From positions 2,170,001 to 2,234,000 of the forward strand of contig JBHGNT010000013.1 of NCBI GenBank assembly GCA_043228905.1: a stretch of 64,000 nucleotides of DNA, in the 5' to 3' direction. The stretch is from Azolla caroliniana. Its lineage: Eukaryota; Plantae; Polypodiophyta. Positions 6,485-50,505 of this stretch are shown here, one piece after another (position 1 is the first letter of the stretch; every line of letters begins with the position of its first letter). Both the position numbers and the translations under genes were made by a program. The notes beneath the pieces are model-generated. The model had not been told where the DNA came from and searched no databases. It saw nothing but the letters and a program-made list of their open reading frames with translations.

Positions 6485-6951
6485 TGTCAAGGAGTTAGCT
6501 TGACAAAAGAAGATTGAACAAGAGAGGAAAAGAAAGAGGGAACAATGGCTATATTTTTAATATAATAGGAAAATATATAAGAGCAAGAACTAGAATATTT
6601 GCCAAAGACTAGTGTTGAACCAGAATGGTTCTAACAATACAATATGTCCTATTTATATAGGAGTAGTATGTGCCCCTTGGATGTTTGTAGGGTCATGATA
6701 CCCTTTGGGATGTTGTAGGGTCATGATACCCTTTGGGATATTGAGGGGTCGTTGACACCCTTTGGGATATTGAAGGGTCAAGGCACCCTTTGGATATTCA
6801 TAGGGTTACATTATCAATATTATAATATACCAAATTATGATATTTTTACATAAAATATATATAACCTGATGGCTAGAGTTGAGTGTTCCTCTTTAGGAGG
6901 TCACGGGTTCAAGTCATCCTAAACCTCATGGGGTTTCATTTACTCATGACA
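6485..6951 (-). repeat. 5' LTR of family A Gypsy, containing ~28-bp tandem repeats
   Basis: TG/CA ends; TATA at 6652-6659 (minus); homologous to 37929-38394 plus 43770-43791; tandem GGGTCATGATACCCTTTGGGATGTTGTA-like units at ~6670-6805. Confidence 0.92.
6862..6915 (+). promoter_or_regulatory. tRNA-like Pol III A/B-box module in LTR U3
   Basis: A-like TAACCTGATGG (6862), GGAGGTC, B-box GGTTCAAGTC (6906); spacing 44. Confidence 0.65.
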
Positions 6952-6956
6952 TCTTG

Positions 6957-7073
6957 TATCCATTCTCATTCTAATTTAATACATTCATTCTTCTCTTATC
7001 ATTTCATTCCTCTCTTCTGGTGATCTCTTTTTATCGTTCTTCAGTAGCTCCATCCTCTGTCTTGGTTCTGACA
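6957..7073 (+). repeat. 3' part of a Tcn1-like LTR (family H) disrupted by the family A insertion
   Basis: Ends TCTTGGTTCTGACA; similar to 12810-12917, which precedes a gag; its 5' part is at ~37640-37928. Confidence 0.75.
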
Positions 7074-7894
7074 CATAGAGCCTTTCCAAGAAGCCAACAA
7101 TTTAGAGCCATTTCAATAAATTGCTCCTCCTTCACTATACAATCTCATTGTATTCAAATATTGGTGATGAGAAAATTTCCTAAACCAACTCCAAGTTTCT
7201 TTGAAATCATTATCAGAAATATTCATTTCTACAACCAATCATCGAGCCTTGTTTGTAGACTGTAATACCTGATGGAGGCAATGCAATTAACAATCGATGA
7301 GATGAATAAATTCAAGCATAAAAACATTCCTCTAATTTAGGGTATCTCTAATTTAAGCATAAAAATAGGTTCTAGGGGATCCTCTAAAACCTATTTTTAC
7401 TATATTTTCAACTTTGTTGAGCACATATTCATACCTCATCCTTCTTCTTTATCAAACTTCTAATGATTGATTAAATTATACCAAAACTTCTACCTTGTTG
7501 CGAAGACGAGATGATGGTTGTTCTATTAACTCCAAAATTTGTAGGTTTTCTTCATAATTCAAATGAGGTCGAAGACCTCGCTTGTGGGTTGAATTCATCT
7601 TTGTAATGTTAATTAACTGATTTTAGATTGACTTAATTAGGAGGAAGGTTTTGACATGATTAAAACTTCAAATTCCATCAAAAAACACCAATTTAAGGAA
7701 GAAAAAGAAGGAGAAGGAGAAGGAGAAAGATGGAAAGAGGAGGAAGAAGACAATGGTCACCACCACCACCATAATGGACTGAGCGCATATTGGAAGAGAA
7801 GAAGCAAACGAAAGAATGAAAGAAGAAGAAAGCAGAACCACGAAAACAAAGAGGAGAGAAAGAAGAAGAACAAAAGGAACAAGAAGCTACGGTG

Positions 7895-48100: not shown

Positions 48101-48145
48101 CATCATCCTTCTTGACATTGCCTCCATGAGATATTCGCCATCCAT
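45128..48145 (-). CDS. Chimeric ORF: gag-like protein of a Trp-primed element fused in frame to the RT C-half and RNase H of family A
   Basis: About 730 aa gag-like/low-complexity region reads through the PPT and 8 bp of LTR into FTIVYLDD...IEADASDFALG. Expression unknown. Confidence 0.6.
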   Translation of the reverse strand: MDGEYLMEAMSRRMMEFLREEKRRNEAQQAVDKVVERMSYFNGAEVKSFLKVYNAEMDSRGVDKAMRLEYFCRVVSQPIFKDVTELLEAHDSWATFEKALLEEYDYERLKGQDRRNFDQWVTSAKTHQGATQAFVDFEHHFSQLSEREQRLVGVDKVLMFVKSIDQMERMAIGLKLEEDDGANGLVEDWSKVESVCRLHDKGQARISTTTRRPMRDDRRGTRCNNAPPTKEMKLRRETKPRRMVIEEEETSQQMRVNEVADTKALVRYDGTEREGVKQVTFLSYKETTAKEEADDSRTANATSREDKCFGTRIVYKTSGDDGASMRKACMIEGEKVFESEEIEEVAMTNDIESEVAMDESTTDSHVDTFFTLVPETSAVARMCQRETGETEGGDGKMKAQHKEEEDRGRKDIPTPILETSAVVHVRQRETGETECVDKKEDDRKGDEEDKVNVHERRDSFTPVPETSAVETVCRHKTEDKGGGEEETIWLEASIHGGKDMADVEAKDEAAVEFDGEVACGKEGRVENRLNRKTIRPGFRPERRKIHMGADRPGPTRPKPDSAKIDRTIPIQKGADPARINRSSPTQGNVNADEGQPSQEAIGGDRSGQEQTRPNRRSTRTIYNTQLKTVSVRSGQESNRRTRAVDEGRAVVSTTSFGRSTTTNRGRRCERRIWWIGWLRWFGWKDCAYSKWKTKSTSVQRNSVDHRCQRSHLFTFLGTYRRMCGFGGGGCRDFLDSFTIVYLDDILIYSKSQEEHDTHVRQVLQCLREYGLYGNLEKCSFDQNHVELLGYVVSQQGISMDPFKVQTVLNWETPCLVRDVQCFLGFASFYCKFIKNYTNIVMPLTELTRKNKSFTWSSNAAKAFENLKRAFTSAPILLQADLEKPLIIEADASDFALGTILSQVGDDGKLHPIAFHSRKFESAEINYEIHDKELLAILDSFEQWRHLLEGSPHQIIVYNDHKNLIYFQNARVLSRRQARWTQFLTHFDFLITYFPGVQQGKADSLS

Positions 48146-48826
48146 CTTCGTTCTCCCCTACCGCTCTTCACGTCGGGTTCACCAAATGATGTCGCGAAGA
48201 TTCGCGCGTGCGTGTGCTACTCGAGCGACCACCGGGGTCTTGGACTGGGGAGGATGATCGCGGAATTATCGACGCTAGATGACGATCAATGTAAGATTAA
48301 ATGAAAATGGTTTACTTGAGAAGAAGAAAGCTTGTACACTTGAGAAGTAGAAAATAATGAAGAAGATAAAGACAAATATAATTTATATTGATGATAATGG
48401 TGTTGGTGATATCACATATTGAGCCCCCCTTACACAAGCCCAACTAGAGGCTTTTATAGGTCTTTCCATGCTCGTGACATGCACAAAACCATGGTTTTGT
48501 GCACACGGTTTTGCTTATGTCATGCACAAACCATGGGTTTAAAACCATGGTTTTGTGCACATGGTTTTCTATGGTTGTTTCGTCTATAATTTGTATATGA
48601 AAAGGAAATACATAAAATCTACACTATATGATAGTTGTCCTAGTGGTAAGGCAATTATCTTGTATCTTAGAGGTGCAAGGTTCAAACCTTGCTTGCACCC
48701 CTCTGTATGAACTCAAGTGCCACTAGGCCTTAGGAGGCTTATTTGCTAAGTGTATGTGCAATGTTGCACATCATTGGTTTATTCGTCTCACTCGGTTTCA
48801 CACCGTAGCCAAAAATCGTCACGACA
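45951..48826 (-). mobile_element. Second tRNA-Trp-primed gag-only Gypsy derivative; 3' LTR reduced to 8 bp
   Basis: 5' LTR 48190-48826; PBS 48168-48184 (TGGTGAACCCGACGTGA); PPT 45959-45970; LTR start TGTCGTGA at 45951-45958. Confidence 0.88.
48636..48688 (+). promoter_or_regulatory. tRNA-like Pol III A/B-box module in LTR U3
   Basis: TGTCCTAGTGG (48636), GAGGT, GGTTCAAACC (48679); spacing 43; GCAAGG/CCTTGC hairpin. Confidence 0.7.
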
Positions 48827-49560
48827 GCGGTGAGATGTGACAACTGCCTCTTTGAGCGACGTTTGGAACGACACCTACAGATGCCGAGGGCAAGATCAGA
48901 GCCCACCTACGCATCAGTGGTAGCAAGACCTTTTCCAAGGGAGTCATATAATGCGCCTCCAGCGAATACTCCGACTCCGATGGAGATTGACACTACACGT
49001 CGTCGAGGGCCATTATCCGATGAAGAAAAGCAGCGACGCCATACAAATCGACTATGTCTTTACTGCGGTGGACCAGGACATATTGCAATAAATTGCCCCC
49101 ATAGGCCAAGAAGACAGGTAAACCAAATAGTCGTTAGTTCTAATTGTACTAAACCCGAGCCTATTTCAGTAGGGATATCAGATAGTCCTAATAGTACTAA
49201 TAGCCCAGATCTAGCGAACAGATTTGATGTCCTTAGTCAGTTAGAAGAAGAGTAAAAAGACTAAGTCCAGCCAAAATAGGAGCCGTTTGGTTGGACAGCC
49301 CTAGATCTGTGCAGCCCATTAGTGGTTCCATTCCCGTACGGGGATCATATAACCTCGTACGGATCCGACCAGGAGACGAATGGAAGACCGCGTTTCGCAC
49401 CAAATATGGGGATTTCGAGTATACGGTCATGCCGTTCGGCCTCACTAATGCACCGACAGTCTTCCAGCACATGGCTAATGATATATTCCGAGATCTTTTG
49501 GATGATTGTTTGATCATCTATTTGAATGATCTACTGGTTTATTCAAAGACCCAAGAAGAA
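48827..49560 (+). mobile_element. Family B Gypsy fragment (gag end, knuckle, partial RT)
   Basis: Matches 24027-24180 and 24181-24236 but with a different internal deletion; [31 protein letters not shown]. Confidence 0.85.
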
Positions 49561-50505
49561 TATGTAGAAGATTGAAAGAGATTAAAAAGAACTTGTGAAT
49601 CCCACAAGTATAGATTATGTCGTGAATCCCACAAATATAGTTTGTTAATTGGTGTTTTAGGAAATATATCCAATTTCCAAATAATCCACACACTTATTAC
49701 ATTGTGCTCCCCATCCTTATATGGTGATGAGAGAGTCTTCACAATCCATGCTTAAACTTTATGCTTTTCCTATCAATAGACTATATGCTTTATTTAACAT
49801 CCTTTTTCTAAAGTGATCATGCTTTTTCTAATTTCTGCGTTTTTTATTGACTATAGTGTTCATGCACGCTACAGGTGCATGTGTAGCTTTTTGTTTTATC
49901 ATGTGTTTTTGTAAAGTTTATCCTAGCGTGAACTTGCATTTTTATGTGGGACATCTCCTATTTAACACTAATGAAAAGCTAGCGAAATGGTAAGACATTA
50001 CGTTATTAACATGAAGGTGCAATGTTCGAATCTTGCCCTGTGTATGTAATGCTTAGTTTGATATTTTCTTCTTTTTTCTTCATATTTATTCAATCGGTTA
50101 TTTTATATTATTTTCATGTAGTGTACTAAATACACTACGACACTCGCCCCCTCCGAAACCACAAATCCTCCGGCATGTGCAGAAGTTGTCGGTGATTGTT
50201 AGCCTTCTCCGTCCGGTCTCCGCCTGGTTGGTTTCGTCACTAGTCGTTTTCGGTTGACGGCTCCATCTGTTCGCCGATTTTCAGTTACCTGCTCTACCCG
50301 GTTTCCGGTTACTGGCCCTCGTAAGTCTTCTTTACTTGTAGTACCCTCCGTTTCTCTTGCTATGCCCACTTTGTCTCTCCATTTCGAGCACAACCATTCT
50401 TTCCACCCAACTCATTTTCACCATCCGATCCACCATAGTCTTCGTTCACTCTTTGCATAGCCATGGTTGATTGTCGCAACTCCTCATGCTATTCTTGAGC
50501 ATAAC
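49561..50505 (-). mobile_element. Partial 3' LTR, PPT and internal region of the Trp-primed family
   Basis: Near-identical to ~25705-26654. Confidence 0.88.
49980..50032 (+). promoter_or_regulatory. tRNA-like Pol III A/B-box module in LTR U3
   Basis: TAGCGAAATGG (49980) and TGTTCGAATC (50023); spacing 43. Confidence 0.68.

What the first reader, a model, noticed from the sequence alone, without database searches (positions are those of the whole stretch)
6862..50032. Five Gypsy LTR families carry an outward-facing tRNA-like Pol III (A-box/B-box) module in U3
Seen: nine modules at 6862, 22329, 22895(-), 26128, 34239, 37720(-), 38327, 48636 and 49980. Each has an A-box-like 11-mer ending TGG, an AGGT(C/G) variable-loop-like motif and a GTTCRA B-box (one mutated). 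The boxes start 43-44 bp apart, the spacing of an intronless tRNA gene. Every module is antisense to its element and, where the LTR end survives, within ~15-140 bp of the U3 terminus, pointing into the flank. They occur in three Tcn1-like LTR families and two Trp-primed families. Between-box sequence is largely unalignable across families and no full cloverleaf forms. I did not see the module in the Copia LTRs or the Arg-primed Gypsy LTR. Known: TFIIIC-bound B-boxes and tRNA genes act as chromatin barriers in yeasts, and Cassandra elements carry a 5S-derived Pol III unit in their LTRs. Inference: these elements carry a selected Pol III/TFIIIC module acting as a built-in insulator, a small-RNA source or a self-targeting landing pad. 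I do not know of a description of it, but could not search the literature.
Basis: partly seen in the sequence, partly recalled or inferred. Interest (0 to 1): 0.85.

Follow-up and report, generated by a model that had tools for sequence, protein, structure and literature searches.

The report
Backward tRNA promoters in moss retrotransposons
Two branches of jumping genes in what is likely a moss genome carry, in thousands of their end repeats, a backward-facing tRNA-gene promoter that has lost the tRNA shape but kept its control boxes, which likely recruits the tRNA transcription machinery to help keep the element's own promoter open in silenced chromatin.

Summary
All nine modules are at the given coordinates. 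A strict A/B-box pattern has 6,315 genome matches against 1 for the reversed control; 44 of 53 hits in 800 kb lie in LTRs. The module is a fixed LTR part of Tcn1-like and Trp-primed Phygy-like Gypsy elements; it was absent from 20 Copia, 5 Arg-primed and 1 Met-primed intact elements. Across 28 module clusters the boxes, the 43-45 spacing and an unsearched AGGT motif are kept while all tRNA stems pair at chance: a DNA signal, not a tRNA. Corrections: 4 of 9 sit in 3' LTRs and point into the element; the constant is divergence from the Pol II TATA 110-270 bp away, and three families add a sense module that brackets that promoter. Best reading: a TFIIIC/Pol III anti-silencing element (0.45). Landing pad and split primer site were tested and not supported. 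It is dispensable: damaged boxes transpose, and P. patens RLG1 seems to lack it. Closest known: Helenus TRIMs. The scan noted similar LTR boxes before in fungal genomes. No binding or expression data.

The parts
6862..6915 (+). Module in F1 (Tcn1-like) 5' LTR; A box 6862-6872, B box 6906-6915; faces the flank
   Evidence: LTR ends
6485..6951 (-). F1 5' LTR, followed on the minus strand by a self-priming-type site; TATA-like box about 200 bp from the A box
22329..22381 (+). Module in F4 (Trp-primed) 5' LTR; B box 22372-22381; faces the flank
21724..22392 (-). F4 5' LTR, U3 end lost; tRNA-Trp PBS at about 21703-21719
22842..22895 (-). Module in F2 (Tcn1-like) 5' LTR; B box starts at LTR position 17; faces the flank
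22826..23238 (+). F2 5' LTR with TATA at about LTR position 184; self-priming site follows; gag ORF 23286-24188
26128..26180 (+). Module in F4 3' LTR (B box G52T); points into the element's PPT
25545..26290 (-). F4 3' LTR; PPT directly beyond 26290
34239..34291 (+). Module in F4 5' LTR; faces the flank
33633..34331 (-). F4 5' LTR, U3 end lost; tRNA-Trp PBS at about 33611-33628
37668..37720 (-). Module in F3 (Tcn1-like) 3' LTR whose U3 end and PPT are deleted; points into the chromodomain ORF 37190-37690
38327..38380 (+). Module in F1 3' LTR (B box T55A); points towards the element's PPT, now across a Copia insertion
37929..43791 (-). F1 3' LTR split by an intact Copia (38395-43764, TSD CTCAT) 14 bp past the B box
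48636..48688 (+). Module in F5 (Trp-primed) 5' LTR; faces the flank; palindromic B region gives a weaker opposite-strand match starting at 48730
48190..48826 (-). F5 5' LTR; tRNA-Trp PBS at about 48167-48184
49980..50032 (+). Module in F4 3' LTR (B box G52T), array duplicate of 26128; points into the PPT
49556..50142 (-). F4 3' LTR, U5 side truncated

Best explanation
The module is a tRNA-derived A-box/AGGT/B-box element fixed in the U3 of Tcn1-like and Phygy-like Gypsy LTRs, facing away from the element's Pol II promoter, and it likely binds TFIIIC and loads TFIIIB/Pol III there so as to keep that promoter open against silencing from the flank. Shown: its presence, position, orientation, lineage range, loss of tRNA stems and retention of the boxes. 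Inferred: capture of a tRNA or SINE head, spread between the two clades by U3 exchange, TFIIIC binding, and the protective effect. The retained A box and fixed spacing suggest a full initiation complex rather than a lone TFIIIC site; any RNA made would be a by-product. The divergent orientation would put the TFIIIB-bound, nucleosome-poor upstream side towards the TATA box 110-270 bp away and stop Pol III from reading through it. I put about 0.8 on the module being a selected DNA signal at all, and 0.45 on this particular function.
For: Family-wide and inherited: copies anchored on the U5 side carry it in 41 of 44, 57 of 60, 30 of 34 and 10 of 10 cases (the pool partly came from whole-LTR searches), and intact elements carry it in both LTRs. 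Lineage pattern in intact elements found without using the motif: 2 of 2 Tcn1-like, 2 of 3 Trp-primed, 0 of 20 Copia, 0 of 5 Arg-primed, 0 of 1 Met-primed chromovirus, 0 of 1 unclassified; three Met-primed chromovirus families picked by protein lack it; chromodomain-anchored Tcn1 families F1, F2, F3, L031, L051, L033 have it and L059 has a worn one. Across 28 clusters, identity is 0.69 in the A box, 0.93 at positions 44-47 (AGGT, not in the search pattern: 27, 26, 28, 27 of 28), 0.82 in the B box, but 0.33-0.38 in the anticodon arm, acceptor arms and upstream DNA; spacing is 43-45 in all 28 (scan range 42-45); no stem pairs above column shuffles (p 0.30-0.86), whereas five true tRNAs do. B-box CpG: among copies the consensus-breaking TG outnumbers the tolerated CA (43 against 26 in two first-100 lists), but among 20 clusters the majority state is CA in 13, CG in 5, TG in 2. 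The A box lies 113-270 bp upstream of a TATA-like box in 10 families. Families h, i and j hold two tandem antisense modules in U3 plus one sense module after the TATA, so the promoter is bracketed. Precedent: tDNA barriers need TFIIIC and Pol III (PMC2040200, abstract); Pol III complexes affect neighbouring Pol II promoters (PMC4228148, abstract); chromodomain integrases are thought to aim at heterochromatin (PMC7466625, passages).
Against: No binding, chromatin or expression data. Within families the boxes are not outliers: the B box ranks 171 of 563, 27 of 301, 128 of 359 and 268 of 410 U3 10-mers. 1,610 genome matches carry the C56T change; young elements with C56T in both LTRs exist (98-99.9% LTR identity, loci chosen for that reason), and family j has it in 6 of 7 copies of its inner module, though two other modules there are intact. 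B-box CpG decay is not lower than at other LTR CpGs (0.14 against 0.23, p 0.43, 25 F4 copies), so no protective footprint is seen. One Trp-primed family close to module-bearing ones lacks it. By eye it is missing from Selaginella SM-Tcn1 and from the first 400 bases of P. patens RLG1, which is transcribed anyway. The fission-yeast barrier works in either orientation (PMC2040200), so a pure barrier does not itself explain the fixed orientation. The family-level CA/TG count is biased both ways by how loci were found, and related clusters are not independent.
Confidence: 0.45

Rival explanations
1. A relic: a tRNA-derived SINE head entered an ancestral LTR and is carried along without present function.
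For: Weak within-family conservation; heavy CpG decay and both-LTR mutants; recurrent 13-bp B-box deletions in 3 of 16 F1 representatives; absence in a sister family and in other plants' Tcn1; tRNA-head repeats of other kinds are common in this genome, one close to the L051 module.
Against: Boxes, spacing and the unsearched AGGT survive across 28 clusters while the spacer falls to background; tandem duplicates keep boxes while their spacers diverge; one of the F1 deletions is in only one LTR of its element (L140/L141 share the TSD), so it arose late.
Confidence: 0.17
2. The selected product is an antisense Pol III RNA: from the 3' LTR it would cross the PPT and feed small-RNA or reverse-transcription control, or act like the foamy-virus U3 Pol III miRNA cassettes.
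For: A box and spacing are kept, as transcription needs; upstream DNA is 81% A+T; a T4 run follows within 80 bases in 20 of 28 clusters; in 3' LTRs the unit points at the PPT.
Against: No conserved stems; T4 offsets scatter from 0 to 74 and T5 occurs in only 8 of 28; only 4 of 30 putative transcripts fold better than z -2, a weak test since the tRNA controls did not pass it either.
Confidence: 0.15
3. The box acts on the unintegrated cDNA or at integration, tethering the U3 end through TFIIIC.
For: In Tcn1-like families the B box starts 7-45 bp from the U3 end, in L033 inside a terminal hairpin.
Against: In Trp-primed families it lies 70-568 bp inside; sense modules occur beyond the TATA.
Confidence: 0.08
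4. A landing pad: Pol III-targeting retroelements, or the family itself, insert just upstream of the module, as Ty3 and TRE5-A do at tRNA genes.
For: Precedent in Dictyostelium, where isolated B boxes attract TRE5-A (PMC3159450, passages); unchecked scan notes report it for gut-fungus LTRs.
Against: Of 42 module copies in the 800-kb sample only 1 loses family homology within 100 bp upstream of the A box, and that one joins the same family's U5, like an internal deletion. The 60 bases upstream of six tRNA-Trp loci differ from one another and show no LTR end by eye.
Confidence: 0.05
5. A split primer-binding site: the sense RNA pairs with the D and T arms of the primer tRNA, as the Ty3 U3 segment does.
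For: Antisense orientation makes the genomic RNA complementary to tRNA loops, in U3 as in Ty3 (PMC5371799, passages).
Against: Tcn1-like families self-prime yet carry it. Trp-primed modules are no closer to tRNA-Trp than Tcn1 ones (identity 0.40 against 0.44; duplex energy -27.6 against -29.2, p 0.62) and have G52 in 15 of 15 where tRNA-Trp has T.
Confidence: 0.05

Closest known systems
Helenus (TRIMp3; Kojima 2024, PMC10886601; parts 1-4 of 6 of the text and searched passages read, supplements not read)
   Same: tRNA-like sequence in both LTRs, conserved around boxes A and B, mostly no functional tRNA, thought to come from a SINE inserted into an LTR; no complementarity to the PBS.
   Different: Helenus are non-coding TRIMs of 311-1263 bp whose Pol III promoter is proposed to transcribe the element. 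Here the elements are 3.2-7.9 kb, many with gag-pol, keep a TATA-like Pol II promoter, and the U3 module faces away from the element's transcript. The only plant Helenus named is in Selaginella; 'moss' and 'Physcom' do not occur in the text. The paper does remark that 'not a few LTRs' resemble part of a tRNA.
Cassandra and Ajax TRIMs (as described in PMC10886601)
   Same: Pol III promoter boxes from a small RNA gene built into LTRs.
   Different: 5S-derived (type 1), non-autonomous; in Cassandra the unit transcribes the element itself.
tDNA barriers and extra-TFIIIC sites of yeasts (PMC2040200 and PMC4228148, abstracts; PMC3159450, passages)
   Same: A/B-box DNA whose role is in chromatin or neighbouring Pol II transcription rather than in the RNA made: the proposed way of working.
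   Different: Host loci with shown occupancy and function; here mobile, thousands of copies, nothing shown.
Foamy-virus U3 Pol III miRNA cassettes (Kincaid et al. 2014 [author recalled], PMC3993851, passages)
   Same: A/B-box Pol III units inside U3 of an autonomous retroelement.
   Different: They have stem-loops and terminators and give sequenced miRNAs; no conserved stem or terminator here.
Ty3 bipartite primer-binding site (PMC5371799, passages)
   Same: U3 RNA of a Gypsy element complementary to tRNA D and T arms.
   Different: Specific to the primer tRNA; here generic boxes, also in self-priming elements.

Membership tests
Helenus / TRIMp3 | tRNA-like sequence in both LTRs with boxes A and B conserved | tested here: met
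Helenus / TRIMp3 | Short non-coding TRIM (up to about 1.3 kb) | tested here: not met
   Elements of 3.2-7.9 kb with gag or gag-pol, some with open pol frames of about 1,200 aa
Helenus / TRIMp3 | Pol III promoter placed to transcribe the element's own RNA | tested here: not met
   43 of 44 LTR-borne hits in 800 kb are antisense; the sense modules of families h, i, j lie after the TATA
tRNA gene | Cloverleaf stems; recognised by ARAGORN or Rfam RF00005 | tested here: not met
Independent SINE insertion | Own TSD and tail, present in only some LTR copies | tested here: not met
   Present in 138 of 148 U5-anchored copies of four families and in both LTRs; flanks are family sequence
Type 2 Pol III promoter | A box and B box at tRNA-gene spacing | tested here: met
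   43-45 in 28 clusters; about 50 in family L033; box consensus recalled, B box also as in PMC3159450
Type 2 Pol III promoter | Oligo-T terminator downstream | tested here: inconclusive
   T4 within 80 bases in 20 of 28, T5 in 8 of 28, scattered offsets
Type 2 Pol III promoter | TFIIIC/TFIIIB/Pol III occupancy and transcript | not testable with these tools
   Only polyA RNA reads of another species label were available
tDNA or ETC chromatin barrier | Blocks heterochromatin spread in a box-dependent way | not testable with these tools
   Indirect CpG-footprint test was not significant
Tcn1 chromovirus (host elements F1-F3) | Chromodomain, self-priming site, 5-bp TSD | tested here: met
   definitions from PMC6317226; gag resembles SM-Tcn1 by eye
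Phygy (host elements F4, F5) | tRNA-Trp PBS, 4-bp NCGN TSD, no chromodomain | tested here: met
   PBS matches the genome's tRNA-Trp 3' end; TSDs CCGT, GCGT, ACGC; table
Phygy (host elements F4, F5) | RT/RH/INT groups with REXdb Phygy references | not testable with these tools
   Reference sequence file too large to read; own tree shows only a separate Trp-primed clade
Ty3-type bipartite PBS | U3 RNA complementary specifically to the primer tRNA | tested here: not met
Pol III-targeted landing pad | Insertions piled at a fixed distance upstream of the boxes | tested here: not met
   1 of 42 within 100 bp; small sample

The most novel reading that the evidence does not exclude
Autonomous Gypsy retrotransposons of two distant clades have domesticated tRNA-gene promoters as portable chromatin insulators, swapping them between clades and in some families bracketing their Pol II promoter on both sides, so that the host genome carries many thousands of mobile TFIIIC sites that let elements stay transcribable in heterochromatin and could reorganise Pol III factor binding genome-wide.
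Probability: 0.4. Interest if true: 0.85.

Novelty: new variant of a known kind. Interest (0 to 1): 0.62.

Why it matters
How heterochromatin-dwelling LTR elements keep their promoter usable is an open question; a self-carried TFIIIC/Pol III element would be a concrete, mutable answer, with natural controls in the same genome (families with zero, one or three modules, and intact against C56T copies). It would extend tRNA-derived LTR promoters from tiny non-coding TRIMs to autonomous elements and to a reversed, likely non-transcript role, and would offer a test of tDNA barriers in a plant. Practically, thousands of such boxes can inflate tRNA and SINE annotation in such genomes.

Tried and rejected
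RNA evidence: no RNA holder was listed for the F2 LTR; two polyA runs under another species label gave 24 and 16 mostly diverged reads, uninformative either way. Folding of putative transcripts against shuffles: weak test, tRNA controls did not pass. CpG footprint test: not significant; only F4 (25 copies) and L033 (26) had usable numbers. Within-family conservation test: underpowered, and two non-family rows entered the P16 alignment. Two clusters used (23 and 45) later proved not to be LTR-borne; one search repeats the conservation and stem counts without them, the others were not rerun. Cluster 29 was dropped for a mis-indexed indel; sense modules and the palindromic match at 48730 were left out of those counts. 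The genome-wide allele count for family j was not obtained; its numbers rest on 7 fetched copies. Rejected: tRNA gene, independent SINE insertions, split PBS, landing pad. Literature: nine answered full-text searches on tRNA-like or Pol III boxes in LTRs, moss Gypsy elements, TFIIIC barriers, foamy viruses and Ty3 priming plus one on lineage names listed no description of this module in moss Tcn1 or Phygy LTRs; subscription journals and Repbase entries are not covered. In PMC7466625 'tRNA' and 'polymerase III' do not occur; in PMC2864245 'polymerase III' does not occur. The Kojima supplements were not read and the REXdb sequence file could not be; both may bear on novelty and range.

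
Full report
Setting. The window is a nest of LTR retrotransposon pieces (Gypsy, Copia, one LINE-like RT) in a tandem array with a 44.3-kb period on contig C13 of a 523-Mb genome. The host is inferred to be a moss because it holds Tcn1-like chromoviruses and Trp-primed elements with 4-bp NCGN target duplications, the features of Tcn1 and Phygy in Neumann et al. 2019 (PMC6317226; passages and one supplementary table read).

Observation. A scan with recalled A-box and B-box consensus motifs returns all nine modules at the stated places. At two mismatches or fewer the window has 16 matches (three are tRNA-Pro genes) against 0.13 in shuffles. ARAGORN and Rfam find four tRNA-Pro genes but none of the modules. 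Three B boxes are mutated. Five modules are in 5' LTRs and face the flank; four are in 3' LTRs and face the element's own PPT or chromodomain. Array duplication reduces the nine to about five or six insertions.

Genome-wide extent. The strict pattern has 3,141 + 3,174 matches against 1 for the reversed control; this total includes true tRNA genes and other repeats. In 800 kb of contig C1, chosen as repeat-dense stretches where that pattern had hits, a lenient scan gave 53 hits: 44 LTR-borne (43 antisense, 1 sense), 3 tRNA-Arg-like, 3 in non-LTR repeats, 1 inside a pol gene and 2 unassigned. Family patterns alone match 2,047 (F2) and 1,581 (F4 group) places.

Part of the LTR, not an insertion. 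Copies collected by their U5 side carry the module in 41 of 44, 57 of 60, 30 of 34 and 10 of 10 cases (part of the pool came from whole-LTR searches). Intact elements carry it in both LTRs. Among 32 intact elements found by LTR pair and TSD alone, it is in 2 of 2 Tcn1-like and 2 of 3 Trp-primed, and in 0 of 20 Copia, 0 of 5 Arg-primed, 0 of 1 Met-primed and 0 of 1 unclassified (copies, not families). Families picked by protein agree: chromodomain hits give F1, F2, F3, L031, L051 and L033 with a module and L059 with a worn one; SH3 hits give three Met-primed chromovirus families without the antisense module, one with a weak 3-mismatch sense match. An integrase tree of 59 rows (two candidates gave no hit and were left out) places carriers in two distant, well-supported clades, Tcn1-like and Trp-primed; the tool warns of long branches at their junction, so I draw no order of events from it. 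One Trp-primed family without the module sits next to carriers.

Other organisms. Of 79 metagenome loci, 13 with 54% or more identity had a readable LTR start: 8 have the module, 4 a worn one, 1 none. One of these families is in G000 at up to 90% identity, so they are probably from close relatives. Of 27 more distant loci (38-53%) with an LTR start, none has it, four with under 210 bases readable. By eye it is absent from the Selaginella SM-Tcn1 LTR (supplement of PMC2864245) and from the first 400 bases of the P. patens RLG1 transcript (supplement of PMC7466625). The feature therefore looks restricted to one host lineage yet shared by two element clades. Tcn1 family L326 also shares a 26-31-bp U3 segment with Trp-primed families h and j, which fits U3 exchange.

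What is conserved. Across 28 module clusters (15 Tcn1-like, 13 Trp-primed), mean identity is 0.69 in the A box, 0.93 at tRNA positions 44-47, 0.82 in the B box, and 0.33-0.38 in the anticodon arm, acceptor arms and upstream DNA; cross-clade pairs alone give the same picture. The box values are partly circular because the scan demanded them; the AGGT at 44-47 (27, 26, 28 and 27 of 28) and T20/A21 (24 and 23 of 28) were not in the pattern. No stem pairs above column shuffles (p 0.30-0.86), while five true tRNAs do. A-B spacing is 43-45 (scan range 42-45; about 50 in L033) although the B box lies anywhere from 7 to 568 bp from the LTR end. The steadier landmark is the Pol II promoter: the A box starts 113-270 bp upstream of a TATA-like box in ten families (TATA positions are motif calls, for L033, g and h read by eye, and in Tcn1 families supported by the self-priming complement about 30 bp further on). 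Families h, i and j have two tandem antisense modules in U3 and a sense module after the TATA.

How strong is selection. Within families the boxes do not stand out from other U3. The B-box CpG decays freely in copies: 83 CG, 11 TG, 6 CA in the first 100 F2 matches and 46, 32, 20 and 2 TA in the first 100 F4-group matches (counted by eye); 1,610 genome matches carry C56T. Young elements with C56T in both LTRs exist; one generation of this is expected even under selection, because progeny U3 comes from the parent's 3' LTR. At family level the majority state is CA in 13, CG in 5 and TG in 2 of 20 clusters; both TG clusters were enriched by my fetching, several CA families were first found by a pattern requiring C56, and one TG cluster is the inner module of three-module family j. 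Among protein-anchored Tcn1 families with three or more copies, five are CA, three CG and none TG. This suggests long-term selection for a working B box with tolerance of loss in single copies. No protection of the B-box CpG from decay was seen.

Rivals tested. Split primer site: Trp-primed modules are no closer to the genome's tRNA-Trp than those of self-priming Tcn1 and carry G52 rather than the Trp T. Landing pad: 1 of 42 copies breaks within 100 bp upstream, and it looks like an internal deletion. Small RNA: no conserved stem or terminator. Relic: not excluded, but it explains poorly the retained AGGT, spacing and tandem duplicates.

Mechanism. Shown: anatomy, orientation, range and conservation pattern. 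Inferred: a tRNA or SINE head was captured, lost its RNA structure, and is kept as a TFIIIC-binding element that loads TFIIIB on the side facing the LTR's TATA box; this would open chromatin or stop silencing from the flank, as tDNA barriers and neighbouring-promoter effects do in yeasts (PMC2040200, PMC4228148; abstracts). Facing away would avoid Pol III reading through the promoter. Confidence 0.45; about 0.8 that it is a selected DNA signal of some kind.

Known and new. Helenus TRIMs carry tRNA-like LTR sequence with conserved boxes (PMC10886601) but are short, non-coding and thought to be transcribed from it; two defining features fail here. Foamy viruses have U3 Pol III units that make miRNAs (PMC3993851). 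My searches listed no account of an antisense module across autonomous moss Gypsy clades. Verdict: real, a new variant of a known kind, function untested; interest 0.62.

Noticed in passing
C1 sample R1 272802 (+); also L318:1062, L411:4689, L416:2616: A second antisense A/B-box unit (spacing 42) lies inside the pol frame of the F3-type Tcn1 family, between protease and RT; its 3' half resembles the genome's tRNA-Lys(TTT) by eye.
   Followed up: partly
L311, L312, L412, L424, L425, L427, R1 71575-71864: Phygy-like families h, i, j carry two tandem antisense modules in U3 and one sense module after the TATA, bracketing the promoter.
   Followed up: partly
L326 LTR 186-216; L311 and L425 LTRs; family a LTR: A 26-31-bp U3 segment with a palindromic core shared between a Tcn1 family and Trp-primed families; it contains what looks like an E2F site (consensus recalled). 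RY hexamers are frequent in U3 of 11 of 16 carrier LTRs and present in 2 of 11 others.
   Followed up: partly
window 9234-9305, 11087-11158, 50951-51022, 53585-53656 (-): Four tRNA-Pro(TGG) genes amplified with the 44.3-kb tandem array; tRNA-Trp 3' ends also occur in tandem arrays on C5, C8 and C16.
   Followed up: no
window 43787-48826 (-): Chimeric element: an F5 (Trp-primed) 5' LTR and gag run in one frame into a Tcn1-like RT-INT-chromodomain and an F1 3' LTR; the RT lacks its N-terminal half.
   Followed up: partly
R1 85860, 306393; R2 107303: Arg-primed Gypsy elements show no purine tract before one LTR and a tRNA-end-like motif instead; the scan has noted this many times in this genome.
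   Followed up: no
L157, L160: A SINE-like repeat with a tRNA head, shared body and unrelated upstream flanks.
   Followed up: partly
R1 547334, L272, L418; R1 595749, R2 49815: Non-LTR repeats with tRNA-type boxes: a 200-bp unit with two convergent modules, one close to the L051 LTR module, and a repeat with tandem A-box copies.
   Followed up: partly
L313, L062-L090, R1 429143, L173-L174: F4, F5 and g are mostly gag-only elements of 3.2-3.6 kb, young and abundant.
   Followed up: no
L139, L140, L149: Recurrent 13-bp deletion of the F1 B box between short direct repeats; in L140/L141 only one LTR of the element has it.
   Followed up: partly
window 12220, 51810, 54718 (-): A weak A/B-like match (spacing 42, no AGGT) in a repeat upstream of the gag at 12916; not classified.
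   Followed up: no
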